DNA of 64,000 nucleotides from Candidatus Woesearchaeota archaeon (GTDB lineage: Archaea; Nanobdellota; Nanobdellia; Woesearchaeales; GW2011-AR9): positions 7,331-71,330 of the forward strand of contig JABHRR010000040.1 of assembly GCA_018670095.1 (NCBI GenBank), read 5' to 3'. Under the pieces are notes generated by a model. The model ran no database searches and was not told where the DNA came from. It saw nothing but the letters and a program-made list of their open reading frames with translations. The position numbers and the translations under genes were made by a program. The stretch's first letter is position 1; each line of letters opens with the position of its first letter. Shown one piece after another: positions 5,529-55,826 of this stretch.

Positions 5529-5530
5529 CT

Positions 5531-6304: not shown

Positions 6305-6365
6305 TTTAATATTCTCAATATTTAAATTAATGGAAAAAATGGATAATAAAAAATAATAAAAAATC

Positions 6366-7280
6366 TTATTTATTAGCTGCCTCTGGATTAGTAACGTCCA
6401 TTCCTAAAATTTTAGCTGTTTCTCTAATTACGTCATAGTCACTGTCATATACTCTTTTATAACGAGAAATCCCGCCCCAGCCATCAACTTTATGGATGGT
6501 TTGTTGATCCATTTTAACTAACGCCAACTGGATTTTTAATTTAATGAGTTTAGGAAGATCTCCTCTAACAGCAATTGGCGAACCGGGAATAGGATCAGAG
6601 GTATAGATAATCTTGTTTACTTGTGGGTCTATTTCTCCTTCTTTTACCATCCTCTTGTATACATTATCACCAGTTGCTCCTGCATCTACTTTGCCATTTG
6701 CAACAGCATACATAACCGCATTATGAGTCCCAGCATAATAACTCGTACTAAAATCGCTATCTGGATCAATTCCGTTCTCAATTAATATTTTTCGAGGAAT
6801 AAGATTTCCAGAGGTAGAAGCAGGATCTACAAAAGCAAAGGATTTCCCTTTTAAATCTGCCAAAGTATTAATTCCGCTATCGACGTTAGTGACAATTACA
6901 GATTTATAAGTTGAACTTCCAGTTTCATCTTTTACGCCATTAACAATTGCTTCTGCCCCAGCAACATTTGCTGCGATAACATATGAAAACGGACCAAACC
7001 AAGCCATATCAATATGTTTATATCGCATTGCTTCAATAGCAGCAGTATAATCAGAAGTCACTTGAATCTCAACAGGAATCCCTAATTCTTTGGATAAGTA
7101 TTCTTTAATGGGTTCATAATTTCTAAGCATTTCATCAGCATCATCAGCAGGAATTAAACCCATTTTCAAAACTTTAATATCGGAAATTGCTCCTCCAGTT
7201 GGGCTTTGAACACCATTACAACCAGCCAGAAATATAACTAAACACAACAACAAACTTAATATTATTTTTTTCATTTTCAT
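6366..7280 (-). CDS. phnD: phosphonate/phosphite-type ABC substrate-binding lipoprotein
   Basis: Signal peptide with lipobox LAGC. The PhnD-like periplasmic binding fold comes first in the phnD-C-E gene order. Confidence 0.7.
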   Translation of the reverse strand: MKMKKIILSLLLCLVIFLAGCNGVQSPTGGAISDIKVLKMGLIPADDADEMLRNYEPIKEYLSKELGIPVEIQVTSDYTAAIEAMRYKHIDMAWFGPFSYVIAANVAGAEAIVNGVKDETGSSTYKSVIVTNVDSGINTLADLKGKSFAFVDPASTSGNLIPRKILIENGIDPDSDFSTSYYAGTHNAVMYAVANGKVDAGATGDNVYKRMVKEGEIDPQVNKIIYTSDPIPGSPIAVRGDLPKLIKLKIQLALVKMDQQTIHKVDGWGGISRYKRVYDSDYDVIRETAKILGMDVTNPEAANK

Positions 7281-33691: not shown

Positions 33692-35041
33692 TTACCACCA
33701 ATTTCGCATTAAATAACTGGAGATATGGTTAATAATGATGTCTCTATTTTTCTCTTTATTCAATGTTTTTATCTTTAAATCATAATTAAACTTGTTAAAA
33801 ATGGCCATTTGTCGATCTAACTCAGAAACAGATTCTTCTGGCCTTCTCTCATGAAGGGTCTGAGCAGAATTGTATAAGTAAATAGAAATTGTTGGCTTTG
33901 GGAATAAGCCAAGTAATATCCTTTTAAACCAAAAAGGAACATTTTCCATTAAAATTATATCAGAACAATAACGATCTGTAATTACTATATTCTTATTAAA
34001 CCTTTTTGGAAAAATTCTGAACCAGTATCGTAAAAATAGGTCTAAACTGAAAACTGGAGCCGCTAAAGTGTATAATATCTTTCTTTTAATTTTTCCATTC
34101 AAACTTTTTTTATTTGTATTATTAGGATTACTTTTAGCAATTTCAGAAACTAATGTTTTAGGATCTGGCCGAATTCCGTCATTTATTTTTTCTGCACGTT
34201 TGTATTTTCTTCCAATTAAACTAATAGGAAGAATATGATCTCTCCCTCTTCCAGTATAAACTAAAGAGGTGTTTTTTCCCGAATCTCTGAGAAAAACATT
34301 TAGATGATTGACAAGAGTAGACTTTCCTGAACCATCTGGGCCAATAACACTAATTAAAGGTGCAATATTAAAAGGGTTCTTTCTTTGTTTCACCCAGCGA
34401 AAGAATAAAGCAATAAATATAGTTAAATGGTTCGGTTTTTTTAAAAGAAAGTAAGTAACTAAGTTTTTTGTTTTGATTTTATCAAACTGGTTATTTCTTA
34501 CTAAACAAATTAATTCTTTTGCGACTTTCTTATTAAAAATATTAGAAAGATGGTCATAAATATATTTATTATTCACACTATTAATTAATTCTAATAAAAT
34601 TCTTTGATATTTTTGTTTAAAGAATCTTTTTCCTAAGATTGAATGAACCAAAAGCATTACAAAAGTATTGTCATTGTTTGGGACATTAAAAAATTCTTTT
34701 TTGAGTCTATTTCCAAGAATTATCTTCTCATCCAAATAACAAATATCATTCCAATGAACCCCTCCAACCTGAATATCAAAACTAACTTTTTTAAGATTAA
34801 TTAATTTAAAAAAAGCTTTGTGTTTTAATGAGAATTGTTGTGTTCTCTCTTCGAAACCATTCTCAATTAGAATTTTTCTCATCTTTTCATAATCTTTTTT
34901 AGAAACAACAGTATCCAAACTTTCAATATCGCTTGGTTTTCCCCCATTTAACAAAAATTCATAATTTCTTAGAATACAATAAGAAATACTTTCTCCTTCA
35001 AATTCTTTTAGTACAGTTTTGATAAATTCTATTCGTTCCAT
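33692..35041 (-). CDS. two-domain protein of unknown function: N-terminal conserved domain + thymidylate-kinase-like P-loop kinase domain (paralog of the 12071..13510 protein)
   Basis: Walker A GPDGSGKST and DRY (IVITDRYCSD) motifs. The N-domain aligns with the 12071 protein and has an SDIESLD acidic cluster suggesting a Pol-beta/LicD-like nucleotidyltransferase fold. Confidence 0.5.
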   Translation of the reverse strand: MERIEFIKTVLKEFEGESISYCILRNYEFLLNGGKPSDIESLDTVVSKKDYEKMRKILIENGFEERTQQFSLKHKAFFKLINLKKVSFDIQVGGVHWNDICYLDEKIILGNRLKKEFFNVPNNDNTFVMLLVHSILGKRFFKQKYQRILLELINSVNNKYIYDHLSNIFNKKVAKELICLVRNNQFDKIKTKNLVTYFLLKKPNHLTIFIALFFRWVKQRKNPFNIAPLISVIGPDGSGKSTLVNHLNVFLRDSGKNTSLVYTGRGRDHILPISLIGRKYKRAEKINDGIRPDPKTLVSEIAKSNPNNTNKKSLNGKIKRKILYTLAAPVFSLDLFLRYWFRIFPKRFNKNIVITDRYCSDIILMENVPFWFKRILLGLFPKPTISIYLYNSAQTLHERRPEESVSELDRQMAIFNKFNYDLKIKTLNKEKNRDIIINHISSYLMRNWW

Positions 35042-43215: not shown

Positions 43216-43650
43216 TCATACTTTAAAGACAAAATATTTGTTAAATAGAAAATTAATAATTGAAACAGTGCCCGCAACAATAACAATGGCAAATAAATAG
43301 TGCCAATTTAATAATTCAGTAGTTAAATAAACTAAAATCCAATTTAAGTCGCTGATAAACAAGATGATGAGAAAAAATAAAATAAAATTACCTTTTTTCT
43401 TAAATGTGATTACAGAGTGATATAAAAATAAAAAAAATATTTCCATGCCTAAAGCAATTGCAAATGAAGCCATATACCAAATATGAACATATTCGGTTAA
43501 AATAAAAGTGATAAATAAATTTAAAAGTAAACTTAATCCTCCGCCAATTAAAAATTTAAAATAACGAAAATAGTTTGAGTTTAATATCTTAGGATTAAAA
43601 TAATTTTGACCCCATTCATTGCTTTTTGTGTAATCCATATTTTTAACCAA
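43216..43650 (-). CDS. GtrA-like small membrane protein (polyprenyl-phosphate sugar flippase component)
   Basis: 144 aa, 4 TM, with the typical GtrA N-terminal GGGLSLLLNL. Confidence 0.6.
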   Translation of the reverse strand: MVKNMDYTKSNEWGQNYFNPKILNSNYFRYFKFLIGGGLSLLLNLFITFILTEYVHIWYMASFAIALGMEIFFLFLYHSVITFKKKGNFILFFLIILFISDLNWILVYLTTELLNWHYLFAIVIVAGTVSIINFLFNKYFVFKV

Positions 43651-43652
43651 AA

Positions 43653-44381
43653 TTAATATTTTCCAAATCTTAATTTTAAGACTCTTAGACCATAATCTTT
43701 TCCTAACCTAAATAAAGTCCCTAAATCACCATCAGATTTAGATACTCCTTCTGTTCTAATGTTATAAACGCAAGGCATTTCGATAATTTTATATCCTGCT
43801 TTTTTTGCTTTGTAAGCAAAATCAATGAAATATTCTCCAAAGCCTTTTCGAGAGAAGTGTACTTTATCAAACACTTCTTTACGAACAGCAGCAAAACCGG
43901 AAGTGTAATCTCTCACCCCAAAACCCAAAAAAGTCATAGCATAAAGATTTATTAAAATGCTAACAAAAACTCTAAATGCCGGCCGAGGATCTTTACCGCC
44001 TTTAACATATCTGGAACCAATAGCAATATCATACTTATCTAACTGAGATACCAAGCCAGGAATCTCTTCAGGAGACAATCCCAAATCACAATCCAACCAA
44101 ACAATAACATCTCCTTGAGCAGCTCTAATCCCATCATCTAAAGCAGAAGCTAAACCTTTCTCATTAATTCTGCGAATAAGTTTTACTTTTGGATTGTTTA
44201 ATTCTTCAACCAATTTCCAGGTTAAATCAGGAGAATTATCATCTACAATAATAATTTCTAATAATTGTTCACAAACAGCATTACTGATCCGATTAATCGC
44301 TTCCACAATATTATCTTTTTCATTATAAGAAGGAAGAATTACAGAGACTTTAAATTCATTAATATTATTATTTGTTTGCAT
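43653..44381 (-). CDS. GT2 polyprenyl-phosphate hexose synthase (DPM1/ArnC-like, soluble form)
   Basis: SVILPSYNE ... IIIVDDNSPD ... WLDCDL (DxD) motifs. Paralog of the 52543..53331 gene. Confidence 0.75.
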   Translation of the reverse strand: MQTNNNINEFKVSVILPSYNEKDNIVEAINRISNAVCEQLLEIIIVDDNSPDLTWKLVEELNNPKVKLIRRINEKGLASALDDGIRAAQGDVIVWLDCDLGLSPEEIPGLVSQLDKYDIAIGSRYVKGGKDPRPAFRVFVSILINLYAMTFLGFGVRDYTSGFAAVRKEVFDKVHFSRKGFGEYFIDFAYKAKKAGYKIIEMPCVYNIRTEGVSKSDGDLGTLFRLGKDYGLRVLKLRFGKY

Positions 44382-45519
44382 TCTCTTCTCTATTCTCTTT
44401 CTGAATCTCTTTTATCTGATTAACAATGAAAATTATTTGCTTATTAGTCAAATGACTAGTAGATGGCAAATAGAACCCTTTAGCTTCCAATTCATCTGAA
44501 CCAGGATAATTTCCAGTAGTGTCCGGAAAACGAGGATCATCACCAAAATAAGCAGGTTGTTTATGCATGCCAATAAAGAAAGTTCTAGTATCAACTCCTC
44601 TTTCTTTTAATTTTTTGCAAAGTTCTGGCATGGTCATTCCAAATTCTGGTTGTACCAAAATGCTGTACATCCAATAAACATTCTTGGCCCAATCTTTTTC
44701 TGGTGGTAAAGTTATCCCTGGAACATCTTTAAGCAGTTCATTGTAAAGATGAGCATTGTTTCTTCTCATCTCAACATAATCATCTAATTTTTCAACCTGA
44801 GCAAGACCAATAGCTGCCTGAAGATTAGTTAAGCGATGATTATATCCTACTTTCTGATGTAAAAATCGAGGTTCACCAAAATAATGGTTTCTTAATTTTC
44901 TTGCTTCCTCAGCAATTTTATCGTTACTTGTTATCACCATACCACCTTCACCGGTTGTAATGAGTTTGTTAGCATAAAAACTAAAACAAGCCACATCACT
45001 TAAACTACCAGCTTTTTTACCTTTGTACTCGGCACCATGCGCTTCAGCAGCATCTTCAATAACAAACAGATTATGTTTGTCAGCAATTTCTTTTACTCTG
45101 TCCATATCAACAGGATGGCCGTAAGTATGGACTACCATAATTGCTTTTGTTTTTTCAGTAATATTTTCTTCAATCTTATCAATGTCCATATTCCAAGTAT
45201 CTAGTTCAGAATCAATTAATACGGGTTTAGCCCCCGAATAAATTATGGCATTAGAAGAGGCAGCCATGGTAAATGTTGGAGTAATCACTTCATCGCCTTT
45301 ACCAATACCAAGAGCTTCAATCGCCAAATGTAAAGCAGTGGTTCCATTTGTACAACTGATTCCATGTTTGACACCACAATAAGCAGCAAACTTTTCTTCA
45401 AACTGTTTTAAGAAAGATCCACCAGAAGAGATCCAGCCGGTTTGCACAGCTTCTGTAACATATTTTAATTCGTTACCTTGTAAAGTCGGTTCACAAACAG
45501 GGATAAAATTTTGATTCAT
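44368..45519 (-). CDS. DegT/DnrJ/EryC1-family sugar aminotransferase (perosamine synthase-like)
   Basis: CFSFYANKLITTGEGG PLP-lysine motif; 14-nt overlap with the downstream GT2 gene. Confidence 0.75.
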   Translation of the reverse strand: MNQNFIPVCEPTLQGNELKYVTEAVQTGWISSGGSFLKQFEEKFAAYCGVKHGISCTNGTTALHLAIEALGIGKGDEVITPTFTMAASSNAIIYSGAKPVLIDSELDTWNMDIDKIEENITEKTKAIMVVHTYGHPVDMDRVKEIADKHNLFVIEDAAEAHGAEYKGKKAGSLSDVACFSFYANKLITTGEGGMVITSNDKIAEEARKLRNHYFGEPRFLHQKVGYNHRLTNLQAAIGLAQVEKLDDYVEMRRNNAHLYNELLKDVPGITLPPEKDWAKNVYWMYSILVQPEFGMTMPELCKKLKERGVDTRTFFIGMHKQPAYFGDDPRFPDTTGNYPGSDELEAKGFYLPSTSHLTNKQIIFIVNQIKEIQKENREENANK

Positions 45520-45980
45520 ATGTAATCACCTTCTTTATTTGTTTCTTTAACGTCTCTTTTCTCGTTCTCTCGGCCCCGATAAGGACCTTGTTTAAGTTCA
45601 ATCACTTTAGTATTATCTTCTAAAAAAGTGAAACCATGACCACAATTAAGAATTATGGAATCTCCTGTATTCACAATCACTTCAGAAATTTTAAGATCAT
45701 TCTCACTTTCATCATAGAGATCAATCTTAATACTTCCTGAGATAATATAAAAAAATTCTTGCACTGGAAAATTTGTCAGTTGAGAAAAAGGAATATGAAC
45801 ATGAGGAGTGCAAACATCACCCTTTGGCCGATTATGCATTCCTACTTGAAATGGAAATTCGTCCGGACTAACAAACAACATACTTTTACCAGATTGTTCC
45901 AATTCTTGCAATGCCTTAGCTCGAGTAACAATTGCGAGAATCTTACCGTTACGCTCTATTCTTTCTATTGAATTTTCCAC
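45516..45980 (-). CDS. WxcM/FdtA-like cupin (NDP-4-keto-6-deoxyhexose 3,4-ketoisomerase), putative
   Basis: 154-aa cupin with the His pair PHVHIP; 4-nt overlap with the aminotransferase gene. Confidence 0.5.
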   Translation of the reverse strand: MENSIERIERNGKILAIVTRAKALQELEQSGKSMLFVSPDEFPFQVGMHNRPKGDVCTPHVHIPFSQLTNFPVQEFFYIISGSIKIDLYDESENDLKISEVIVNTGDSIILNCGHGFTFLEDNTKVIELKQGPYRGRENEKRDVKETNKEGDYI

Positions 45981-46063: not shown

Positions 46064-47782
46064 TCAAAATCTTCTCTTTCTGAAAACAAGATAAAAAACA
46101 AAAGGAATACTTAATATTGCAAGAATAACATCTAACCACAAAATAAAAAATCCAACCCCCTCAACTACTTTTTCAAAACCAGTTGCTTGATAATAATCAA
46201 CAGCTTGTTCTGGATATTTCCAACCAACCGGATAAAACCAAAACTGATGTGTTTTATCAATAGCTTCCAACGCTTCGTTTGGTAAACTGATTTGTCCTTG
46301 ATAAATTAAGAAGTGATGGGTTGCTTTTACTTCGCCCACTGATTGCAAATTTTCTTTGAAATAAGTACTGATTTGTTCTCCAGTATCAAAAACACGTTGA
46401 AAGTCTTCGGGTTTCCAACCACAATTAGTTCCTGGACCACACTCGATATAATACAAAGGCACAGTAACTTTGTTTGGAGCATCTTTAACTTGTTCCATTA
46501 AATCAAAGAAATGCGTTCCTTCAAAATAATGTTTATCATTAAAGACCCATGCATGAATACCACGATAAATTCTAGGATCAATTACAACGACAGCATTGTT
46601 GGGAATGTTTTCGTGTGTATATTCTCGTAATGCTAAGGTTATTGATTGTTCACGTGACTCTTTTAGTTCCGGGATTATAACAAAGAAAGTAATCATTAAT
46701 ATGATGATAATTACAAATGAGCTGAGATGTTTAAAATTAAATTTCTGTTTTATTTTCTCTGATAATAAAAAAATAGAATAAGCAGAAAAAACACTAAATA
46801 TTGCTGAAATCCAAATATAATGACTTCCACTACCTGTCTGGCCAGCTAAATAAACAAAAGGAAAAACAATGGACAAAATAAACAAAGAAGCAACTAAACG
46901 ATTTCTTTTAAAATAATATATTAATCCGAGGAGTCCAAAAATAAAAATAAAAGGTTCTAATTTTAATAATAATAAAATCTTACCGCTGGTTATACTTGTA
47001 AGTTTATCAAATGACCATTCAGTTTTCATCCCTTGATGGACCGTTTCTCCAATTCCTAAAACATTTGAAAAGAAATAATCTGTTATTCCCTTTTCTTGAT
47101 AAACAAGATAATTATAAGAAAATATTGGGATAATTAAAATTATAAAAATTAATGCACAAAAAAGAACTAATTTAATGTTTTTTGGGGACAAAATGAAACT
47201 GCCGTCTTTAACAAGATTACTTTGGGAATACTCTTTAATAATCCAAATGACAGCAAGAATGGGAACAAAAAGAATTGCAATTGGTTTTACTAAAATACCT
47301 AAAGAAAGAAATAAAGTGGCAAGATATAAATGATGATGATTTTTTAACCCACGAATAAAAAATAAAATACTGAGGAAAACAAAAAAATAAGCAAGCATAT
47401 CCATCTCATAATTAAATTTTATTGCATGTCCTGAAAAAGCAAAAAGAAAAGCAGCAAAAAGAGCATTTTTTTTATTGTCAAACAACTCTTTGGCGATTAA
47501 AAAAATAATAAAAACAGAAAGGGCACCAAATATAATTGCAGTTAATCTCAAAGAGATGGGAGTAATCCCACCAAACAATTTATAGCTAATATCTGTAAGA
47601 TAAAAAAATAGAGGTGATTGTTCTATTGTTCCCAATCTATCTGCAGAAATAATATTTAATGGAATAATGGAGTAAATCATCTCATCGGTGGATACATCCG
47701 TATTATTAGCGGCATAAATCCTAATAACAAATGCTAAGATAAATATTATAACCAAAAAGATTAAAGTTTTTGTAACTTTCAT
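46064..47782 (-). CDS. GT-C membrane glycosyltransferase (PMT_2/ArnT-like, GT39/GT83-type), no. 1
   Basis: First-loop acidic motif STDEMIY and the pattern SLRLTAIIFGALSVFIIFLIAKELF typical of ArnT/PMT; many TM helices. Confidence 0.6.
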   Translation of the reverse strand: MKVTKTLIFLVIIFILAFVIRIYAANNTDVSTDEMIYSIIPLNIISADRLGTIEQSPLFFYLTDISYKLFGGITPISLRLTAIIFGALSVFIIFLIAKELFDNKKNALFAAFLFAFSGHAIKFNYEMDMLAYFFVFLSILFFIRGLKNHHHLYLATLFLSLGILVKPIAILFVPILAVIWIIKEYSQSNLVKDGSFILSPKNIKLVLFCALIFIILIIPIFSYNYLVYQEKGITDYFFSNVLGIGETVHQGMKTEWSFDKLTSITSGKILLLLKLEPFIFIFGLLGLIYYFKRNRLVASLFILSIVFPFVYLAGQTGSGSHYIWISAIFSVFSAYSIFLLSEKIKQKFNFKHLSSFVIIIILMITFFVIIPELKESREQSITLALREYTHENIPNNAVVVIDPRIYRGIHAWVFNDKHYFEGTHFFDLMEQVKDAPNKVTVPLYYIECGPGTNCGWKPEDFQRVFDTGEQISTYFKENLQSVGEVKATHHFLIYQGQISLPNEALEAIDKTHQFWFYPVGWKYPEQAVDYYQATGFEKVVEGVGFFILWLDVILAILSIPFVFYLVFRKRRF

Positions 47783-47872
47783 TTTACATTCTTTGTTTTT
47801 TTTTGTTATTTGTTCTTTACTCTTAATTCTTTGTTATTAATTTTTAGTTTTTATTATTTGTTTTTGTGTTAA

Positions 47873-48127
47873 TCATTCAAAAACACAAATATACCCATTG
47901 TTTGATTGAGCAACATGTCCTCCAGCACCCAAACAACAATTATTTACTTCTCTAAACTTCTGGCAAAAATCTTCACCTTTAGCAATGCATTTTTTTTGTA
48001 TACAATTATCATAACCACTTTTATCCGTATTTTTCATTGCTCCAATTGAAAAAATAACCATTAAGATAAGTAAGCTATATAATATAAACAATAACGATTT
48101 TTGTCCGAATGATAAATTATTTTCCAT
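47873..48127 (-). CDS. small secreted/membrane-anchored cysteine-rich protein
   Basis: 84 aa, N-terminal hydrophobic anchor, 7 Cys in the C-terminal 45 aa (CIQKKCIAKGEDFCQKFREVNNCC...). Confidence 0.4.
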   Translation of the reverse strand: MENNLSFGQKSLLFILYSLLILMVIFSIGAMKNTDKSGYDNCIQKKCIAKGEDFCQKFREVNNCCLGAGGHVAQSNNGYICVFE

Positions 48128-48136
48128 TTTATCTGA

Positions 48137-50092
48137 TTACTTAACTGTTAAAGCAATAAATACCCCCTCTTTCTGATAAACAGGTTCAAATAAACCGGAA
48201 TTAATAAAGTCATTATACTTTTCCTGAAGTACGCCCAAGGATTTTTCTTCCCCGACTTCTTTTTTGAAAAATTTCAAGTCGTTCTTTATACTTAATAACA
48301 GATATTTATAATCTTTACTTTTTAAGAACCCATGAAGTTCTTTTGCACTTACATTAATAATCTTTTTTCTGAGTTCAATCTCTTCTTGACACCAATTACA
48401 ACTATATTTCCCAAACCCAACAGCAATTTTTGGTCTTGAAATCATAAAAACTTTTTCATTAACTGGAATTGAATTAAACCAAACACCATACTCAAAAGCC
48501 TCTTGAGGACTATTAAAGAAACTTGAAGTGGGCCAAACAGTAGTGTTATGTTGGATTTTGTAAGTAGCAGAAGTAAAAAAAATGCTAAAAATAATAATTA
48601 GAAGAATAAAAAACCTAATCACTTTTTTCTTACTAAAGAAATCTTTAATGAAGAAAGCACCTTCGGTCGAAACAATTGCAACTGGAATTGCTAATAACAT
48701 CCAAACCCTAAATGCACCTTTAGCAACTGAAAAAGGAAAAGTTATTCCATTAACTCCCCAAAAAGTATATATTAACCAAAATAAAATAATGCAAGCCCAC
48801 GCATTTCTCTTTTTAACAATTGAAGTTTTATACTTCCAAAGCAAATAAATTACACCAACTAAAACTAAAAGACTAATTACTATCCCGATTCCTATTGGAT
48901 TATTAATCATGTTCTCACTTTTTGCAATCATAAAATCTTTCAATGTGTAAGCACGTGAAGCAGAACCTCCGGGATTAACAACTGCAGAAATAGCATTAAC
49001 AATAAAAGATTTTGAGGGGGGAGGCAATGGGGCCCCGGTAATTGTAACAGAAGGAGCAGCGCCAAGTATCCTATAAGAAAAATAATAAGTTAAAAATCCA
49101 AATCTCCCATATTTAAATAACATTGATCCAAACCAAAATAAAGAGATACCAATCCCACCAAAAATAGCACTAAAATGGAAAAATAATATTTTCCGATTAG
49201 CAATAGATAAAATAATAACGTAAATAAAAATAAGGGTTGTTAATTTAATTGGTTGAGAAAAATTTTGTGAAACCCATAGCCCAGCAACCAATAAAGCAGA
49301 AATAACCCACCATCTTTTATCATGTTTGATTCTTTCAAATGCATACATTGTCGGGAAAAATAAAGTAACAATAAATGAATGTGCCCAAATAAAATGGCTA
49401 AGATAACATGGAATTGCAGCTAAAACAAAGGTTGCGAAAAGTGCTTTATTACGATTCCCTACAAATTGCCAGGCAAAGAAAAAGAAAAAAATGAAACCTA
49501 AAGAGATTATTAAAGCATTAAAAAATTTCATAGTCCAGGTTAAATCTGGAGAAGTTTGATGTAAAACTCCTAAGAACACATCATAAGCGGGCGGATAAGG
49601 ATCCAAATAAGACAATACTGGTTCTAATCTTTCTGAATCTTTTGGAGGTGGACCATAAGCAGTCTTTTCAATAGAAACATATTTAATTCCTTCTGAATGG
49701 CCCCAAGGATCTTCATTTTCTAAATAAGGGTAACTAAAAGCACCTTTTGCGTACATATAAAAAGAAGCGAAGAAAATTAATAAAACAATCACAATAATCA
49801 AATTTGATTTGGTTAACTTTAATTTTGGTAATCTTAAATTGCCTGCCTTTACTTTCTTAATCAAATCATAAATAGGAACGATTAAACTTAAAATTAAAAA
49901 TATTTTCCAATCTAATGGAACTCGAAAAAAATTAAGAATGATTGATAATATTGCGAAAATACCTAAACCAATCCCCACATTCATCAAATTTCTTTCTAAT
50001 GCATTTTCAGATTGTTTTACGAAATAGGTAACTGTAAAACCTAATCCCCAAGCATACAAGAAAAATAAAATAATTGTTATTATGCTAACCAT
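48137..50092 (-). CDS. large polytopic membrane protein, GT-C-like glycosyltransferase candidate, no. 2
   Basis: 651 aa, more than 12 TM, acidic ENEDPWGH in an early loop. No WWDYG motif, so not an STT3/AglB oligosaccharyltransferase. Confidence 0.35.
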   Translation of the reverse strand: MVSIITIILFFLYAWGLGFTVTYFVKQSENALERNLMNVGIGLGIFAILSIILNFFRVPLDWKIFLILSLIVPIYDLIKKVKAGNLRLPKLKLTKSNLIIVIVLLIFFASFYMYAKGAFSYPYLENEDPWGHSEGIKYVSIEKTAYGPPPKDSERLEPVLSYLDPYPPAYDVFLGVLHQTSPDLTWTMKFFNALIISLGFIFFFFFAWQFVGNRNKALFATFVLAAIPCYLSHFIWAHSFIVTLFFPTMYAFERIKHDKRWWVISALLVAGLWVSQNFSQPIKLTTLIFIYVIILSIANRKILFFHFSAIFGGIGISLFWFGSMLFKYGRFGFLTYYFSYRILGAAPSVTITGAPLPPPSKSFIVNAISAVVNPGGSASRAYTLKDFMIAKSENMINNPIGIGIVISLLVLVGVIYLLWKYKTSIVKKRNAWACIILFWLIYTFWGVNGITFPFSVAKGAFRVWMLLAIPVAIVSTEGAFFIKDFFSKKKVIRFFILLIIIFSIFFTSATYKIQHNTTVWPTSSFFNSPQEAFEYGVWFNSIPVNEKVFMISRPKIAVGFGKYSCNWCQEEIELRKKIINVSAKELHGFLKSKDYKYLLLSIKNDLKFFKKEVGEEKSLGVLQEKYNDFINSGLFEPVYQKEGVFIALTVK

Positions 50093-50173
50093 TTTTTCTT
50101 TTTTTAAATTAAATGAATCTATGTTATTAAGAGTATATAAAGTTAATTAAATTGGAAGATATAAAAGAAATAA

Positions 50174-51643
50174 TCAAATTTTGGAATTATAATAATATAA
50201 ATCTAATTCTTTATAACTTTCCGAATAAATTAAATTATACTTATCTTTCAATAACTTAACGTAATAATCACCCGTTTTTATATTTCTTGAAGAAATAAGC
50301 CAAAATTCTTTTTTCTGATTTAATAAACTAAATAACTGAGACTCATTTATTTTAATTAATTCCCTTTTATTTTCCCAAGTAAGCTTAATCTGGTCATATC
50401 CCCTATACAATTCAGTATCCCAATAATAATCGAACAAAAGAACATTAGAACCAGAACGATCAAATAAAATTAAAGGTTTACTTGAAGAATGTTCTTTAAT
50501 AGTGATTACTGCTTCATCCCAGGGGGCTTTGGTAGTTTCACCATAATATAGGGTTAGAGTAAAAAAGTTAAAAATTAAGATTAAAAAAACAATTATTATT
50601 TGAGTTCTCTTTAATTTTAATAGGCTTATTACTTTTGCAACTAAAACATAAAAGAAGGGAATAATAAAAAAAGAATGTCTTACTAAAGCAAAAGATCTTG
50701 TAATTGTATCCATTAAAAATAAATGAATTATTCCAATGAATGCTAAAGAAACAAATGTAACCCAAATTATAGTATTATTTTTAGGCATTTTAAATGAATA
50801 TTTTCTAAACAAAACAAGAATGCCGATTGTAAATAATAGAAGTAAAATTAACGGAAGTAAATAAAAACCAACACCCAGATTACTTAAAAAAACTGGCACA
50901 CCCCTTAAAACTAAACTTTCTTGTAAAATGGGATGACGAATCATTGTTTGAATAAATAATATTTGTAATCCGGGAATAAAGAAAATGATTGAAATTATTG
51001 CCGAAGAAAAGTGATTTTTTAAATTCAGGTGAGATTTGTGTTCCCGGTAATAAAAAAATAAAATTAAAGAATGGAAGATGATTACAAATAAAGCCATGTA
51101 GTTAGTATACAGCAGTATGGCATTTACCAATGAATAACCAAACAGAAAATAAATTTTCTTTCTTTTGTTGAGAGGAGTTTGAGATAATAATATAAATAAA
51201 TAAGTTGAAAGCAAAACTAAAAACCCAAACAAAGCATAAGGCCTTGCTTCTTGAGCATAAACAATTTGTAACATTGTTGTTGAGAAAATTAAAGCACTAA
51301 TTAGACCTACTTTTTTGTTAAAAACTTTTGCCCCTAAAAGATAAATTAAAATCACTGATAAAGAGTCAAAGAATGCTGATAAAAAACGTAAAGAGAACTC
51401 ACTAGTTCCAAATAAAGATGCCCAATACTTTAAGGTTATAAAATAACCAGGAGGCATTAATTCAGTGTAAATCACAGAATCAATTAACCCTTTATAATTT
51501 TCTTTCTGAGTATGAATTAAAGAAACCATCTCATCTGTCCATAAAGATTCTGTACTTAAATCATAAAAACGTAAGGTAGCACCTAAAATTACAATTAGAA
51601 ATAAAATCAAATAAACTTTTTTCTTATTTTTTTCCAAATTCAT
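50174..51643 (-). CDS. GT-C membrane glycosyltransferase (PMT_2/ArnT-like), no. 3
   Basis: LRFYDLSTESLWTDEM acidic first-loop motif; YWASLFGTSEFSLRFLSAFFDSLSVILIYLL. Confidence 0.65.
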   Translation of the reverse strand: MNLEKNKKKVYLILFLIVILGATLRFYDLSTESLWTDEMVSLIHTQKENYKGLIDSVIYTELMPPGYFITLKYWASLFGTSEFSLRFLSAFFDSLSVILIYLLGAKVFNKKVGLISALIFSTTMLQIVYAQEARPYALFGFLVLLSTYLFILLSQTPLNKRKKIYFLFGYSLVNAILLYTNYMALFVIIFHSLILFFYYREHKSHLNLKNHFSSAIISIIFFIPGLQILFIQTMIRHPILQESLVLRGVPVFLSNLGVGFYLLPLILLLLFTIGILVLFRKYSFKMPKNNTIIWVTFVSLAFIGIIHLFLMDTITRSFALVRHSFFIIPFFYVLVAKVISLLKLKRTQIIIVFLILIFNFFTLTLYYGETTKAPWDEAVITIKEHSSSKPLILFDRSGSNVLLFDYYWDTELYRGYDQIKLTWENKRELIKINESQLFSLLNQKKEFWLISSRNIKTGDYYVKLLKDKYNLIYSESYKELDLYYYNSKI

Positions 51644-51663: not shown

Positions 51664-52509
51664 TTACATATATTTAAAAAAATCTTTAAAAGTTATTAAC
51701 TTATTTCCTTTTCTCTTTAACTGACTAAAATCTTCTTTGGTAGGCATCCTAGTCATCGTGGCTTTTTCTTCATCTTGTTTAAATGAGATTAGTTCATTAT
51801 CACCATTATGATTAACATTAGCATAATTATTGATAAACTCATTTAACATAAAACCAAATGATTGCGCTAATTTATGATGGAGTTCATACATGGATATGTT
51901 TTGATTATAATCGAACTTCTTTTGAAAAATAATATTACCAGTATCTAATCCGGCCTCCATAAAATGAATAGTTACCCCATATTGCTGATCTCCATTAAAT
52001 AGATACCAAAAATATTGAGCGGCACCCCTATATTCTGGAAGATAAGAACCATGAGCATTAATCAACTTATTGCCAAGAGTTTCAAAAACGTTCTTTCTTA
52101 AAATTTGGGCTACCAAACAAAGCACATAATTGGGATTTAATTCTTTAACGTTATTTAAAAAATCATTATCACTAAGATTGTTTGTTTTAATTATAGGGAT
52201 ATTATATTGACTAGCTAAGTCTTCAATAGTCTTAGCAGAATCATTTTGATACTTTTTTGTTTTTGTTAATTTATGACCTAGCAAGAGATAGTTATAAACT
52301 TTTGATTCCAATAATTTGTAAAAGAAAAAACTAAATGAAGATTTTTTTGTAAGTTTATAGGCAACTTTTAGTTGATCAGTAAATGATTCCCCTTTAAATT
52401 GACTAGCAAGGACAATTGCTTTGAGTCTATCTGAGTTATTTATTAAGACTTCTCTTGTAGCCACTATAGAAGCCATTGTATTCTGAGTGAAAACGATAAT
52501 ATCTTTCAT
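51664..52509 (-). CDS. formyltransferase-family protein (sugar N-formyltransferase / ArnA-FT / Fmt N-domain-like)
   Basis: NAHGSYLPEYRGAAQYFW and GVTIHFMEAGLDTGNII match the N10-formyl-THF binding and catalytic motifs. Confidence 0.65.
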   Translation of the reverse strand: MKDIIVFTQNTMASIVATREVLINNSDRLKAIVLASQFKGESFTDQLKVAYKLTKKSSFSFFFYKLLESKVYNYLLLGHKLTKTKKYQNDSAKTIEDLASQYNIPIIKTNNLSDNDFLNNVKELNPNYVLCLVAQILRKNVFETLGNKLINAHGSYLPEYRGAAQYFWYLFNGDQQYGVTIHFMEAGLDTGNIIFQKKFDYNQNISMYELHHKLAQSFGFMLNEFINNYANVNHNGDNELISFKQDEEKATMTRMPTKEDFSQLKRKGNKLITFKDFFKYM

Positions 52510-52542
52510 CTTTTGTTTATCAAATGATAACTTTTGTAAAAA

Positions 52543-53331
52543 TTAAATCTTTTTAAATCTCAGTTCAATTATTCTTTTCAAATATAACATCCCATACTTG
52601 AAAAGGCCAGATAAAGTATCAGCAGTTTTTGATTGTCCTGCCCTTCTATCAACAAAAGGATATCCTACCTCTTTGATTTTGTATCCTTTCTTTCCTGCAG
52701 TATAAAGAAATTCAATACAATATTCTCCATAAGCAGAGTCAGAAAGAGTTATTTTCTCAAGGACCTCTTTTTTTGCAGCAATAAAACCACTATCATAATC
52801 CAACACATTAAAGTTAAGGACGATATTAGTAAAGACGTTGATAAATCTACTTGATACAACCCTTAACAAAGGCCGTTTATCTTTACCACCTTTAGCATAC
52901 CTTGAACCAACAACAACATCGTAATGATCAAATTTCTGTAACATTCGCGGGATTAATTCTGGAGGCATAGATTGATCTGCATCCATCCAAACAACATATT
53001 TGCCCTTTGCTTCTTTAATAGCATTTGAGATTGATTTGACTAAACCTCGATCTTCTAATCTTCTGATTACTTTCACATCAAAAGAGTTTAAATCTTCTGC
53101 AATTTTCCAAGTACCATCTGGACTATTATCATCAACAACAATAATCTCTTTAGAATGATTAACTAAAGCTTGTTGTGTTCTTTGAATTAATGGGATTATG
53201 TTTTCTGCTTCGTTATATGTTGGAAATATAACTGAAACCTCAATTTCTGAATTACTGATATCTTTTCCCATATTTTTTACCATATCTGTTTCTATTGCTT
53301 TCCCTATTGTCTTTTTTATTATTTTTTCCAT
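52543..53331 (-). CDS. GT2 polyprenyl-phosphate hexose synthase (ArnC/DPM1-like, soluble form)
   Basis: VSVIFPTYNE ... IIVVDDNSPD ... WMDADQ. Paralog of the 43653..44381 gene. Confidence 0.75.
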   Translation of the reverse strand: MEKIIKKTIGKAIETDMVKNMGKDISNSEIEVSVIFPTYNEAENIIPLIQRTQQALVNHSKEIIVVDDNSPDGTWKIAEDLNSFDVKVIRRLEDRGLVKSISNAIKEAKGKYVVWMDADQSMPPELIPRMLQKFDHYDVVVGSRYAKGGKDKRPLLRVVSSRFINVFTNIVLNFNVLDYDSGFIAAKKEVLEKITLSDSAYGEYCIEFLYTAGKKGYKIKEVGYPFVDRRAGQSKTADTLSGLFKYGMLYLKRIIELRFKKI

Positions 53332-53424: not shown

Positions 53425-54897
53425 TTGGTTTCATTTAGGTTAAGAATGGAAGAATTAAGAAAGAATATTAAGTTGGAAAGGGATTCTATGAGTAATAATG
53501 AAGTAATATTAAAAAGTAAACAGATTAAAGAAAGAATATTGACTTTTTCTTTGTTTAATCAATCTAATTCTATAATGTTTTATTACCAAAAAGGAAATGA
53601 AGTTAACTTAAATGGTTTAATGAGTTCACAATTAAATCATCAAAAAAGAAAGATAATTCTTCCGAAAACAAATAAAGATGATTTTTCAATGAAAAGTTAT
53701 CAAATAAATAATTTAAGTGAAGATTTGGAGAATGGCGCATTTGGAATCATGGAACCAAAAAAAGATTGTTTAGAAATTAACAAAGAACAAATTGACCTTG
53801 TTTTTGTTCCTGGGGTTGCTTTTGACTTAGCTGGAAATAGATTGGGTCATGGGTTAGGTTATTACGATCGATTTCTTGAAGATTTTAATGGGATTAAAGT
53901 GGGGGTTGCTTACGATTTTCAGATAGTTGATTCCATAAAAGTTAAAAGCCATGATGTGCCAATGGATTATGTCATAACAGAAAAGAGGGTCATTAAAACT
54001 AATCGAGAACAAAATAAAATGGGACAATTATTATCAGGAAAAGAATTATCTGAAAAAATATTAACGGCACTTAAAGAAAAAGTAGAAATACTAGAAAATA
54101 AACCAACTTTAGCGATTGTTTCTGTAGGAGAAGATCTAGCATCTAAGATTTATATCAAAAAAAAACTTAAAATTGCAGAAAAAATTGGTGTAAAAGCGCG
54201 ACATTACAAACTAAACGAAGAAACAAAAGAAGAAGAATTGTTAGGTTTGATTGAGAAGCTAAATAAGGATGATAATGTTGATGGATTTATTGTTCAATTA
54301 CCTTTACCAAAACAGATTAATGAAAATAAAGTAATTAATAGTATTAATCCCAGAAAAGATGTGGATGGTTTCCATCCAATAAATATGGGTAAAATATTCT
54401 TAGAGATCTTTGAAGAAGAAACAGATATGATTCCCGCTACGCCTTACGGGATAATGAAAATTATTGAATATTATAATCTTGATTTAGAAGGGAAAAAAGT
54501 TGTTATTGTTGGCAAAAGTAATATTGTGGGTAAACCAATTGCCCAATTGATGCTGATGAAGAATGCCACAGTAACTATTGCCCATAAAAAAACTAATAAT
54601 CTTGCTGAACATACAAAGGATGCAGACATAATTGTTGTTGCCGTTGGAAAAGAAAAACTTATTACTGCTGACATGGTCAAAGAAGGTGTGATAGTGATTG
54701 ATGTGGGGATGAACCGAACTGAAGAAGGTAAGATTGTTGGAGATGTTGATTTTGAGAATGTTAAAGAGAAAGCATCACTCATCACTCCAGTTCCTGGAGG
54801 AGTAGGACCAATGACGGTTACGATGTTACTTTATAATCTTGTAAAGACTAAAATAACAATGAGAAAAGTATCTAATGAAGAAGATAAATCTTTATAA
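53425..54897 (+). CDS. fusion: 5-formyltetrahydrofolate cyclo-ligase + methylene-THF dehydrogenase/methenyl-THF cyclohydrolase (FolD)
   Basis: N-terminal DLVFVPGVAFDLAGNRLGHGLGYYDRF (MTHFS signature). C-terminal FolD motifs ASKIYIKKK, DGFIVQLPLP, VVIVGKSNIVGKP, PGGVGPMT. Confidence 0.8.
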   Translation: MVSFRLRMEELRKNIKLERDSMSNNEVILKSKQIKERILTFSLFNQSNSIMFYYQKGNEVNLNGLMSSQLNHQKRKIILPKTNKDDFSMKSYQINNLSEDLENGAFGIMEPKKDCLEINKEQIDLVFVPGVAFDLAGNRLGHGLGYYDRFLEDFNGIKVGVAYDFQIVDSIKVKSHDVPMDYVITEKRVIKTNREQNKMGQLLSGKELSEKILTALKEKVEILENKPTLAIVSVGEDLASKIYIKKKLKIAEKIGVKARHYKLNEETKEEELLGLIEKLNKDDNVDGFIVQLPLPKQINENKVINSINPRKDVDGFHPINMGKIFLEIFEEETDMIPATPYGIMKIIEYYNLDLEGKKVVIVGKSNIVGKPIAQLMLMKNATVTIAHKKTNNLAEHTKDADIIVVAVGKEKLITADMVKEGVIVIDVGMNRTEEGKIVGDVDFENVKEKASLITPVPGGVGPMTVTMLLYNLVKTKITMRKVSNEEDKSL

Positions 54898-54938: not shown

Positions 54939-55826
54939 GTGAAAACAATGAAAATAATAATATCCATACCGGCATATAACGAAGAGAAAACATTACCTCG
55001 AGTTTTAGAAGAGATTAAAGAAGTAATGAGTAATACAAATTATAATTATGAGTTCTTGATTCTTGATGATGGTTCAAAAGATAAAACAGTAGAAGTAGCC
55101 GAGAAACAAGGAGCAATAGTAGTTTCTAACAGAAGAAATTTGGGTTTAGCGGAAACTTTCAAAAAAGAAATGACTGAATGTCTAAAAAGAAAAGCAGAGA
55201 TTATTGTTCATACTGATGCGGATGGACAATATCATCCTCAACACATTCCGGAACTGATTAAAAAAGTTGAAGAGGGTCACGATTTAGTTTTAGGAAGTAG
55301 ATTTAAAAGAAATATCAGACATATGCCATTTCTCAAAAAGATTGGAAATATGGCTTTTGCTAAAGTGATTAGTTCTTTAACCAAAGTTAAAATTACGGAT
55401 TCCACAACTGGTTATCGTGCTTTCACAGCAGAAGTTGCTAGAAACATTAGTTTTATTAATACATTTACTTACACTCAAGAACAAATTATTAAAGCTGCCA
55501 AACAAGGTTTTAAAATAACTGAAGTCCCGATAGTTTGTAGAAAAACTAGAGAAAGTAGATTATTTAAAAATCCGTTTCAATATGCAATTAAAGCTTGGAT
55601 AAATATATTCAGAATTTATCGTGATTATCAACCATTAAAATTTTTTGGGCAGATTGGAGGAATTTTCTTTTTATTAGGATTCCTATTGGGAATTTACATT
55701 ACTATTACTTTTATTCTTACAGGGGTCGTTGGTGGAATTCCTAGAGTGATTCTAAGTATGCTTTTGATGTTAACGGGAATTCAGATAATTTTGTTTGGAT
55801 TTTTTGCGGATATGTTACATAAATGA
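54939..55826 (+). CDS. GT2 polyprenyl-phosphate sugar synthase with C-terminal TM helices (GtrB-like)
   Basis: ISIPAYNEE ... LILDDGSKD ... two C-terminal TM helices. Confidence 0.7.
   Translation: MKTMKIIISIPAYNEEKTLPRVLEEIKEVMSNTNYNYEFLILDDGSKDKTVEVAEKQGAIVVSNRRNLGLAETFKKEMTECLKRKAEIIVHTDADGQYHPQHIPELIKKVEEGHDLVLGSRFKRNIRHMPFLKKIGNMAFAKVISSLTKVKITDSTTGYRAFTAEVARNISFINTFTYTQEQIIKAAKQGFKITEVPIVCRKTRESRLFKNPFQYAIKAWINIFRIYRDYQPLKFFGQIGGIFFLLGFLLGIYITITFILTGVVGGIPRVILSMLLMLTGIQIILFGFFADMLHK

What the first reader, a model, noticed from the sequence alone, without database searches (positions are those of the whole stretch)
46064..51643. Three GT-C-type membrane glycosyltransferase candidates in tandem, with a small Cys-rich secreted protein between the first two
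Tandem GT-C enzymes (two clearly ArnT-like with D-E first-loop motifs, one divergent 651-aa protein) indicate several distinct polyprenyl-phosphate-sugar-dependent transfers on the outer face of the membrane. They pair with the three or four DPM1/GtrB-like GT2 genes in the window. The 84-aa, 7-Cys membrane-anchored protein (47873..48127) between them has no known function. It could be an acceptor, a chaperone-like partner, or a lectin-like component.
Basis: partly seen in the sequence, partly recalled or inferred. Interest (0 to 1): 0.55.

Follow-up and report, generated by a model that had tools for sequence, protein, structure and literature searches.

The report
Three membrane sugar-transferases and tiny partner
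In the surface-sugar gene island of a tiny DPANN archaeon, three membrane enzymes that add sugars on the outside of the cell sit in a row; the middle one belongs to an unannotated enzyme family that is nearly always next to a tiny six-cysteine membrane-anchored protein, which is probably its helper.

Summary
Four minus-strand ORFs lie exactly at the stated coordinates in a ~30% GC Woesearchaeota (DPANN) glycan island. The 572-aa and 489-aa proteins are Pfam PMT_2-type GT-C enzymes. The 651-aa protein has no Pfam, NCBIfam or PDB sequence match. Its AlphaFold model (pLDDT 85) has a GT-C fold resembling STT3, AglB, DPY19, AftA, Pmt4 and ArnT, and profile comparison links it to the two neighbours. 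It founds a conserved family seen only in DPANN among the hits listed (>800 proteins). It lacks the WWDYG motif of oligosaccharyltransferases and coexists with a canonical AglB in one relative, so it is a separate GT-C and not the N-oligosaccharyltransferase.

The 84-aa ORF is real. It has six cysteines, not seven, and one conserved transmembrane helix. It belongs to a closed orphan family (33 representatives among 1.84 billion proteins) with no fold match. It abuts the 3' end of the 651-family gene in 49 of 80 genome loci. In loci chosen through the small gene itself, it does so in 32 of 34 informative cases. It occurs in either orientation, with at least seven inversions. It is absent from the more distant branch of the 651 family.

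Best reading: Dol-P-sugar-dependent outer-face glycosylation, with the mini-protein as a lineage-specific companion of the 651-aa enzyme. Its role as a subunit is inferred, not shown.

The parts
50174..51643 (-). 489-aa GT-C glycosyltransferase (PMT_2 type), first of the tandem trio in transcription order
   Evidence: Pfam PMT_2 4.6e-11, 43.6 bits against a cut-off of 26.1. ArnT equivalog scores only 27.5 against 567 bits. 'WTDE' lies in the loop after TM1, with many hydrophobic segments. It is the commonest upstream neighbour of the 651-family gene in relatives.
48137..50092 (-). 651-aa founder of an unannotated GT-C family seen only in DPANN archaea among the hits listed ('X651'). About 14 TM helices, three of them N-terminal extras, plus a C-terminal extracytoplasmic alpha/beta domain with an invariant CxWC.
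   Evidence: No Pfam, NCBIfam or PDB sequence hit. Model pLDDT 85, pTM 0.88. Foldseek hits STT3 1.8e-8, AglB, DPY19, PglB, AftA, Pmt4 and ArnT. hhalign to the 489 family 95% and to the 572 family 93%. Invariant motifs are YPYLE(D/N)EDPWGH, DPYPPAYD, SHFIWAH, GGSASRAY, NMINNPIGIG and CxWC.
47873..48127 (-). 84-aa bitopic mini-protein: conserved TM helix plus a six-Cys ectodomain of two helices and a beta-hairpin. Orphan family linked to X651.
   Evidence: 112 clusters, all 61-118 aa, no Pfam. Only 33 representatives in 1.84 billion proteins. Model pLDDT 91.5 with no PDB fold match. Abuts the X651 3' end in 52/83 loci in either orientation, and in 32/39 loci selected through the small gene.
46064..47782 (-). 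572-aa GT-C glycosyltransferase (PMT_2/PMT type) with a 164-residue outside domain and a final TM
   Evidence: Pfam PMT_2 1.7e-16 and PMT 2.3e-7, both above cut-off. Agl23 TIGR03663 scores 49.9 against 126 bits. 'STDE' lies in loop 1. Heads the conserved string GTC572-cupin-DegT-GT2-GtrA in many relatives.
54939..55826 (+). AglJ-like Dol-P-hexose synthase (GT2); inferred donor-maker for X651
   Evidence: NCBIfam AglJ 3.5e-44 over the full length and Dol-P-hexose transferase 1.5e-33. Adjacent to, or one gene from, X651 in at least 23 related loci. Highest distance correlation with X651, r=0.72.
51664..53331 (-). GT2 (AglJ/Dol-P-hexose/ArnC-like, 52543..53331) plus formyltransferase (ArnA-N/Fmt-like, 51664..52509), immediately upstream of the 489-aa GT-C
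   Evidence: The string GT2-FMT-GTC489 is conserved in L005, L006, L008, L019, L026 and L043.
53425..54897 (+). MTHFS-FolD fusion, the probable supply of formyl-tetrahydrofolate for the formyltransferase
   Evidence: Pfam 5-FTHF_cyc-lig plus THF_DHG_CYH and THF_DHG_CYH_C. Divergent from the GT2-FMT pair here and in relatives.
43216..45980 (-). Amino-sugar/Dol-P loading module downstream of the 572-aa GT-C: WbuC-like cupin (45516..45980), DegT aminotransferase (44368..45519), ArnC-like GT2 (43653..44381) and GtrA-family membrane protein (43216..43650)
   Evidence: The same order is conserved in relatives.

Best explanation
This is part of the surface-glycan island of a Woesearchaeota (DPANN) archaeon. 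It works like the archaeal AglD/AglR/AglS route and the bacterial Arn and Gtr routes. Cytoplasmic enzymes build modified amino sugars. GT2 enzymes load single sugars onto dolichyl or polyprenyl phosphate. The lipid-sugar is flipped across the membrane. Three different GT-C transferases (489, 651 and 572 aa) then each add a sugar to an acceptor on the outer face. The 651-aa enzyme founds an undescribed GT-C family. It has three extra N-terminal helices, and all its conserved motifs face outward. Its donor most likely comes from the AglJ-like GT2 at 54939..55826. The 84-aa protein is a lineage-specific companion of this enzyme. It is anchored by a conserved transmembrane helix and displays a small domain with three inferred disulfides outside the cell. 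It most likely binds the enzyme as an accessory or stabilising subunit. Shown: the fold, the family relationships, the conservation and the gene linkage. Inferred: the donor, the disulfides, the physical binding and the acceptor.
For: GT-C identity: Pfam PMT_2 for the 572- and 489-aa proteins. The 651-aa model has pLDDT 85 and matches only GT-C structures at E<1e-3. hhalign to the neighbour families gives 95% and 93%, aligning LENEDPWGH with LSTESLWTDE and DPYPPAYD with ELMPPGY. Outer-face logic: K/R-rich loops alternate with the conserved acidic or His-containing loops. Donor context: three AglJ/ArnC-like GT2 genes, GtrA, a formyltransferase, DegT and two Wzx-type flippases. GT2_295 lies next to X651 in at least 23 loci. 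Companion: the small gene abuts the X651 3' end in 49 of 80 genome loci, with a median gap of about 1 nt when co-directional. The same holds in 32 of 34 informative loci chosen by the small gene alone and in 3 of 3 contig look-ups. The adjacency survives at least 7 orientation changes and varied outer neighbours. The TM helix is as conserved as the ectodomain: Q9, K10, L12, L13, L16, Y17, L19, L22, M23, F26 and S27. C47 and C55 are lost together in three relatives, as expected for a disulfide pair.
Against: There is no direct evidence that the two proteins touch. No natural fusions were found, no complex model could be run, and the distance correlation (r=0.54) is no better than for other neighbours. 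The periodicity of TM conservation is only marginal (p=0.065). The distant branch of the X651 family (37-45% identity) has no small gene nearby, and no remote homologue exists anywhere, so the enzyme does not need it in general. Two informative loci carry the small gene without X651. Donor and acceptor are unknown. No enzyme activity has been tested for any member.
Confidence: 0.55

Rival explanations
1. The 84-aa protein is the acceptor substrate of the 651-aa GT-C. On this reading it is a small membrane-anchored glycoprotein, and its gene is kept beside that of its modifying enzyme.
For: The genes are tightly linked. The ectodomain lies on the same side of the membrane as the GT-C active site. 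A nearly invariant Asn63 lies in an N-C-C context, an atypical N-x-C sequon.
Against: No conserved Ser/Thr or N-x-S/T site exists in the ectodomain. Asn63 sits inside a predicted helix next to cysteines that are probably disulfide-bonded. A strongly conserved TM helix is not expected for a mere substrate. An enzyme family this widespread and conserved is unlikely to serve one 84-aa protein that its distant branch lacks.
Confidence: 0.15
2. The small protein has a function of its own, for example a disulfide-rich surface or released peptide for host contact, signalling or antagonism. It merely travels with the 651 gene because both sit in a recombining glycan island.
For: In half of the loci it is convergent with X651 and so not co-transcribed. 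In some loci it lies apart from X651 or is co-transcribed with a Wzx flippase gene. The weakest structural echoes are helix-plus-hairpin toxins (scyllatoxin, tamapin), but at E of about 6. A conserved Ala30 could serve as a signal-peptidase site.
Against: Hitch-hiking does not explain why the adjacency to one particular gene persists through at least 7 inversions while the neighbours on the other side vary. The hydrophobic helix is far more conserved than signal peptides usually are. The fold hits are not significant.
Confidence: 0.15
3. The 651-aa protein, alone or with the mini-protein, is a non-STT3 oligosaccharyltransferase or protein glycosyltransferase. It would move a Dol-P-linked glycan onto proteins, in parallel with AglB.
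For: The best structural matches are STT3 and AglB. It has a conserved partnership with an AglJ-like Dol-P-hexose synthase. In Haloferax volcanii an AglB-independent N-glycosylation route exists whose transferase is unidentified (PMC3871713).
Against: There is no STT3 Pfam match and no WWDYG motif. TM-scores around 0.45 do not separate STT3 from ArnT, Pmt4 or AftA. No homologue outside DPANN was seen among the best hits. Nothing identifies the acceptor.
Confidence: 0.1
4. The 651-aa protein is a catalytically dead GT-C-fold scaffold, comparable to PIG-U in GPI transamidase.
For: PIG-U appears among the weak fold matches (rank 25, E 0.1). Sequence similarity to active GT-C families is very low.
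Against: Invariant acidic, His and Arg residues cluster in the outward-facing loops exactly where GT-C active sites lie: E125, D128, D164, H233, H238 and R380. Linkage to a Dol-P-sugar synthase is conserved.
Confidence: 0.05

Closest known systems
AglD / AglR / AglS of Haloferax volcanii: Dol-P-mannose synthase, flippase-associated protein, and the Dol-P-mannose mannosyltransferase that acts on the outer face
   Same: Archaeal. A GT2 loads one sugar onto dolichyl phosphate, the lipid-sugar is translocated, and a membrane transferase adds it to an already exported acceptor (PMC3871713). The window has the same parts: AglJ/Dol-P-hexose-synthase-like GT2s, Wzx/GtrA-type proteins and PMT_2-type GT-Cs.
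   Different: Here there are three GT-Cs in tandem instead of one. None reaches an Agl equivalog cut-off; Agl23 TIGR03663 scores 49.9 against 126 bits. The 651-aa enzyme is a separate family. No small Cys-rich partner is described for AglS.
Arn pathway (ArnB, ArnA, ArnC, ArnE/F, ArnT) of Gram-negative bacteria
   Same: DegT aminotransferase (ArnB-like), formyltransferase (ArnA N-domain-like), ArnC-like GT2 and a GT-C that acts outside the membrane.
   Different: ArnT equivalog scores 27.5 against 567 bits. Archaea have no lipid A acceptor. No ArnD deformylase or ArnA decarboxylase domain was seen. The carrier is presumably dolichol. This comparison rests partly on my own knowledge of the pathway.
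STT3 / AglB / PglB oligosaccharyltransferases (GT66)
   Same: Best structural matches of the 651-aa model (E 1.8e-8 to 1e-5, TM about 0.40-0.46). Both have a membrane domain followed by a C-terminal outside domain.
   Different: No PF02516 match and no WWDYG motif. A canonical AglB lies 3 kb from the X651 gene in locus L083. Three extra N-terminal helices are present.
GT-C enzymes with small obligatory partners, such as PIG-M with PIG-X, STT3 with Ost4, and EmbB with AcpM (recalled from the literature, not tested here)
   Same: A large polytopic GT-C paired with a very small protein. PIG-X and Ost4 are single-pass membrane proteins needed for stability or assembly. This is the model proposed here for X651 and the 84-aa protein.
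   Different: No sequence or fold similarity of the 84-aa protein to anything solved. The interaction is not demonstrated. The partner is confined to one branch of the enzyme family.

Membership tests
GT-C superfamily (lipid-phosphate-sugar-dependent membrane glycosyltransferases) | Polytopic membrane protein with about 8-14 TM helices | tested here: met
   Hydropathy gives roughly 11-14 distinct hydrophobic helices in each of the three proteins. The 651-aa model has about 14 membrane helices.
GT-C superfamily (lipid-phosphate-sugar-dependent membrane glycosyltransferases) | Conserved acidic motif in the first extracytoplasmic loop after canonical TM1 | tested here: met
   'STDE' in the 572-aa protein and 'WTDE' in the 489-aa protein. 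In the 651 family E125 and D128 are invariant within YPYLE(D/N)EDPWGH, and this motif aligns with the DE loop of the 489 family.
GT-C superfamily (lipid-phosphate-sugar-dependent membrane glycosyltransferases) | Sequence or fold similarity to established GT-C members | tested here: met
   PMT_2 hits above the gathering score for the 572- and 489-aa proteins. For the 651-aa protein, all 15 Foldseek matches at E<=0.001 are GT-C enzymes, and hhalign gives 95% and 93%. The folds of the 572- and 489-aa proteins were not modelled.
GT-C superfamily (lipid-phosphate-sugar-dependent membrane glycosyltransferases) | Uses a polyprenyl or dolichyl-phosphate-linked sugar donor | not testable with these tools
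   Only context is available: three AglJ/ArnC-like GT2 genes and GtrA in the island, and GT2_295-X651 synteny.
Oligosaccharyltransferase STT3/AglB/PglB (GT66), considered for the 651-aa protein | Match to the STT3 family model (PF02516) | tested here: not met
   No hit for the window protein or for any of 30 family members. A true AglB from L083 scores 9.6e-34.
Oligosaccharyltransferase STT3/AglB/PglB (GT66), considered for the 651-aa protein | WWDYG motif in the C-terminal domain | tested here: not met
   A regex search found the motif only in the L083 AglB, in no X651 member, and in no window gene product: the single window match lies in a stop-interrupted reading frame, not in an ORF. The X651 family has NTxxWPTSG / WPPG after the last TM instead.
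ArnT (GT83), considered for the 489-aa protein | Reaches the ArnT equivalog model NF009784 | tested here: not met
   27.5 bits against a cut-off of 567.
Protein O-mannosyltransferase PMT (GT39), considered for the 572-aa protein | PMT N-terminal domain plus a MIR domain in the large luminal loop | tested here: not met
   PF02366 is matched at 31.1 bits against a cut-off of 22.7, but no MIR domain was reported at E<=0.1.
Agl23 / TIGR03663 archaeal GT-C-like family, considered for the 572-aa protein | Reaches the TIGR03663 cut-off | tested here: not met
   49.9 bits against 126.25.
Thioredoxin-like fold, considered for residues 518-651 of the 651-aa protein | Beta-alpha-beta-alpha-beta-beta fold with CxxC at the start of helix 1 | tested here: inconclusive
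   The secondary-structure order and the invariant CxWC fit. No Pfam or PDB sequence match was found, and no domain-level fold search could be run.
Known small subunits of GT-C complexes (Ost4, PIG-X and similar), considered for the 84-aa protein | Sequence or structural similarity to a known subunit | tested here: not met
   No Pfam or NCBIfam hit. Best PDB fold match has E 2.3. No distant relatives in 1.84 billion representatives.

The most novel reading that the evidence does not exclude
The 651-aa GT-C and its six-cysteine mini-protein form a two-subunit, non-STT3 protein glycosyltransferase. The enzyme's CxWC-bearing outside domain and the disulfide-rich partner would handle cysteine-containing substrates, loosely as Ost3/6 do in the eukaryotic oligosaccharyltransferase. 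Such an enzyme would give a concrete candidate type for the AglB-independent transferase that is still unidentified in archaeal N-glycosylation (PMC3871713).
Probability: 0.08. Interest if true: 0.8.

Novelty: new variant of a known kind. Interest (0 to 1): 0.47.

Why it matters
DPANN archaea depend on contact with their hosts, and their surface glycans are almost unstudied. This work puts a large group of 'hypothetical proteins' (>800 clusters) into the GT-C superfamily. It defines the group's signature motifs. It also names a specific, testable partner protein and a probable donor-making GT2. If the mini-protein proves to be a subunit, it would, to my knowledge, be the first dedicated accessory subunit reported for a GT-C enzyme in archaea. 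The pair stays adjacent whichever way the small gene points, which is a clean example of linkage maintained by something other than co-transcription.

Tried and rejected
(1) Invertible-segment idea for the small gene. Only short, low-complexity inverted repeats of 71-86% complementarity flank 47783-48136 in AT-rich DNA. Orientation is largely clade-bound, with 7 changes against 16 expected if random. I read this as evolutionary inversions, not a switch.
(2) Natural fusions of X651 with the small protein. None were found among 120 X651 homologues or the locus ORFs; the longer ORFs are N-terminal extensions from ORF calling.
(3) Thioredoxin-like identity of the C-terminal domain.
(4) X651 as the organism's AglB. 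Rejected: it has no STT3 model match or WWDYG motif, and a canonical AglB sits beside X651 in L083.
(5) Mirror-tree co-evolution. r=0.54 for X651 and the small protein, similar to other neighbours, so not discriminating.
(6) Co-variation of the CxWC motif with presence of the small gene. Rejected: the motif is universal in the family.
(7) Remote homologues or a known fold for the small protein. None found.
(8) Single-sequence PDB searches for the 572- and 489-aa proteins. No hits.
(9) The ~630-aa gene upstream of X651 in one subclade as a fourth GT-C. Its N-terminus (MCGI(T/S)GW...) looks like an asparagine-synthetase-type amidotransferase and it shows no similarity to the GT-C families; no family search was run on it.
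(10) Literature searches found no description of this family or this pair.


Full report
**Observation.** The window has about 30% GC and no tRNA or Rfam hit.
- 50174..51643 (489 aa)
- 48137..50092 (651 aa)
- 47873..48127 (84 aa)
- 46064..47782 (572 aa)

The 84-aa protein is identical to a protein annotated 'hypothetical' in a Candidatus Woesearchaeota assembly. It recurs on 18 contigs with the same gene order. The only factual slip is the cysteine count, which is six (42, 47, 55, 64, 65, 81), not seven.

**The two recognisable GT-Cs.**
- The 572-aa protein matches Pfam PMT_2 (1.7e-16) and PMT (2.3e-7), both above the curated cut-offs. The 489-aa protein matches PMT_2 (4.6e-11), also above its cut-off.
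- Both have a cytoplasmic K-rich N-terminus, then TM1, then a loop carrying 'TDE', then many further hydrophobic segments.
- They are generic PMT_2-type GT-Cs. The ArnT equivalog scores 27.5 against 567 bits, and the Agl23 model scores 49.9 against 126 bits. No MIR domain was found. 'Clearly ArnT-like' therefore overstates the case.

**The 651-aa protein.** It has no Pfam, NCBIfam or PDB sequence match. It does have more than 800 homologues; the best 120 are 46-64% identical, 585-706 aa long and all unnamed, and where a source gives an organism it is Woesearchaeota or Nanoarchaeota.
- A genome-collection scan returned 121 relatives. The 80 kept are DPANN bins: Woesearchaeota, Nanoarchaeota, Nanoarchaeia and Pacearchaeota. 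Some third-party assemblies are titled 'uncultured Methanosarcinales', which I take to be a labelling artefact.
- An AlphaFold2 model built on 30 family members is confident (pLDDT 85.1, pTM 0.88).
- All 15 PDB matches at E<=0.001 are GT-C enzymes: yeast and human STT3 (1.8e-8), A. fulgidus AglB, DPY19, PglB and AftA. Pmt4 and ArnT follow.
- TM-scores of 0.40-0.50 do not favour one GT-C family over another.
- Profile-profile comparison links it to the two neighbours: 95% probability (E 3e-8) to the 489 family and 93% to the 572 family.
- In that alignment residues 97-329 pair with residues 10-234 of the 489-aa protein, 'LENEDPWGH' pairs with 'LSTESLWTDE', and 'DPYPPAYD' pairs with 'ELMPPGY'.
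- So helix 95-118 is the canonical TM1, and the family carries three extra N-terminal helices.
- Following the helices in the model, and using the K/R-rich loops as cytoplasmic markers, every invariant motif faces outward. These motifs are YPYLE(D/N)EDPWGH, DPYPPAYD, SHFIWAH, GGSASRAY, NMINNPIGIG, NTxxWP and the CxWC of the C-terminal alpha/beta domain. That is where a GT-C active site should lie. This topology is an inference.
- Two of 30 members also touch PMT_2 weakly (1e-6).

**Not the N-oligosaccharyltransferase.** Despite the STT3 and AglB fold matches, the family has no PF02516 hit and no WWDYG motif. In locus L083 a canonical AglB lies about 3 kb from the X651 gene. It scores 9.6e-34 on PF02516 and has a WWDYG-type motif. 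X651 is therefore an additional GT-C. Whether it transfers to protein, glycan or lipid is unknown.

**The small protein is real and conserved.**
- A profile search found 112 clusters, of which 111 are strong (E<=5e-16), 61-118 aa long, with no Pfam domain and no informative name.
- An exhaustive HMM scan of 1.84 billion representatives found only 33, all short, with no tail of distant relatives.
- Invariant residues are C42, C64, C65, G67, G70 and C81. Nearly invariant are C47, C55, K57, N63, A68, G69 and F83.
- C47 and C55 are replaced together in three relatives, which suggests they pair.
- The transmembrane helix is as conserved as the ectodomain: Q9, K10, L12, L13, L16, Y17, L19, L22, M23, F26 and S27. 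The spacing is i/i+3/i+4, but the periodicity test is marginal (p=0.065).
- The model (pLDDT 91.5) shows a TM helix at 7-31, helices at 35-50, 52-55 and 58-67, and a hairpin at 71-82.
- No solved structure matches; the best E-value is 2.3.

**Linkage.**
- In 83 loci (80 fetched through the 651 family, plus three contigs identical to the window found through the 84-aa protein), the small gene is present in 52 and always lies beyond the 3' end of the 651-family gene.
- Of these, 27 are on the same strand, mostly with gaps of -3 to +10 nt. The other 25 are on the opposite strand, and in 17 of them the two 3' ends lie within -13 to +39 nt.
- That sample is biased towards X651. I therefore repeated the test from the other side.
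- Of 39 metagenome loci fetched through the small protein alone, 32 contain X651, again with the small gene at its 3' end (22 co-directional, 10 convergent). Five of the remaining seven are too short on at least one side of the small gene to be informative, and two informative loci (L094, L109) lack X651.
- Three contig look-ups agree. In one, a Wzx flippase gene lies between the pair.
- On a tree of X651 sequences the orientation changes at least 7 times, against about 16 if random. Genes on the far side of the small gene vary: GTC572, Wzx, aminotransferases and others.
- No convincing inverted repeats flank the gene here. These look like evolutionary inversions rather than a switch.
- The more distant branch of the family (37-45% identity, motif WPPG instead of WPTSG) has no small gene nearby.

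The small protein is thus a lineage-specific addition, not a universal requirement.

**Context and mechanism.** The whole window is a glycan island. It encodes:
- PAPS synthesis, NeuB, several DegT aminotransferases, 4,6-dehydratases, a C-methyltransferase and a GNAT;
- two Wzx-type flippases, a CDP-alcohol phosphatidyltransferase and inositol-1-phosphate synthase.

Three GT2 genes resemble AglJ, Dol-P-hexose transferase or ArnC. Synteny across relatives suggests modules:
- GT2(262)-formyltransferase-GTC489, with a divergent MTHFS-FolD fusion that could supply formyl-tetrahydrofolate;
- GTC572-cupin-DegT-GT2(242)-GtrA(-C-methyltransferase);
- the AglJ-like GT2(295) next to X651 in at least 23 loci, with the best distance correlation, r=0.72.

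This is the logic of Haloferax AglD/AglR/AglS (PMC3871713) and of the bacterial Arn and Gtr systems (the latter from my own knowledge). A GT2 loads one sugar on the lipid phosphate, the lipid-sugar is flipped, and a GT-C transfers the sugar outside. The assignment of one GT2 to each GT-C is inferred.

**Role of the mini-protein.** I favour a dedicated accessory or stabilising subunit of X651. The grounds are the conserved TM stripe, the adjacency that does not depend on orientation, and the restriction to one enzyme clade. This is not shown:
- no fusions were found;
- no complex model was possible;
- the co-evolution signal is unremarkable.

Two alternatives are less likely but not excluded. 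One is an acceptor substrate, whose only conserved candidate site is Asn63 in N-C-C. The other is an independent surface peptide. The thioredoxin-like reading of the CxWC domain fits the secondary-structure order, but it lacks any sequence support and remains a lead.

**Verdict.** The result is a known kind of system (Dol-P-sugar-dependent GT-C glycosylation) with two new elements: an unannotated, well-conserved GT-C family seen only in DPANN among the hits listed, and an orphan disulfide-rich mini-protein tied to it. Interest is moderate. It would rise sharply if the pair proved to be a two-subunit protein glycosyltransferase.

Noticed in passing
L083:1510-5013 (minus strand): A 1167-aa canonical AglB/STT3 (PF02516 9.6e-34, WWDYG-type motif) carries a C-terminal FKBP-type peptidyl-prolyl isomerase domain (PF00254 6e-19). 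This fuses an oligosaccharyltransferase to a folding catalyst, about 3 kb from the X651 gene.
   Followed up: partly
window 7511-10306 (+): A 931-aa protein fuses a pyruvate-kinase barrel domain to PUA-like, ATP-sulfurylase and APS-kinase domains, giving a PAPS synthase with an unusual N-terminal PK domain. It implies sulfated glycans.
   Followed up: no
window 53425-54897 (+): A fusion of 5-formyl-THF cyclo-ligase with FolD dehydrogenase/cyclohydrolase lies divergent from the GT2-formyltransferase pair. The same arrangement recurs in relatives (L005, L006, L008, L019, L026), suggesting a dedicated formyl-donor supply for a formamido sugar.
   Followed up: partly
window 4677-7280 (-): A complete PhnCDE-type phosphonate/phosphite ABC transporter (all three above the NCBIfam cut-offs) lies next to the glycan island.
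   Followed up: no
window 24656-26788 (+); also 31995-33392 and 33692-35041 (-): A 710-aa protein has a FemAB-family C-terminal half (TIGR04421 6.9e-20, below its cut-off). Two Pfam-less proteins of 465 and 449 aa are also present. The 449-aa one travels with a Wzx flippase gene in many relatives and may be a Wzy-like polymerase.
   Followed up: no
L018, L022, L025, L027, L029, L035, L041, L063, L073 (gene directly upstream of X651): In one subclade a ~630-646-aa protein whose N-terminus (MCGI(T/S)GW...) looks like an asparagine-synthetase-type amidotransferase sits between the AglJ-like GT2 and X651. If that assignment is right, it hints at an amidated sugar in that lineage. No family search was run on it.
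   Followed up: partly
L076:9841-10158, L079:9841-10158, L080:9983-10378 (minus strand): In the branch of the X651 family that lacks the Cys-rich mini-protein, a different small multi-TM ORF (105-131 aa) is convergent with, and in two of the three loci overlaps, the 3' end of the X651 gene.
   Followed up: no
L088:232-1979 and L089:121-1868: Here the mini-protein gene overlaps the start of a Wzx flippase gene by 16 nt and is convergent with X651 one gene away. The small protein can therefore also be co-transcribed with a flippase.
   Followed up: partly
window 48128-48136: The 651-aa and 84-aa ORFs are in the same reading frame, separated only by TAA plus three codons. Read-through of one stop codon would fuse them. 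This is not general, since many relatives have 4-nt overlaps.
   Followed up: no
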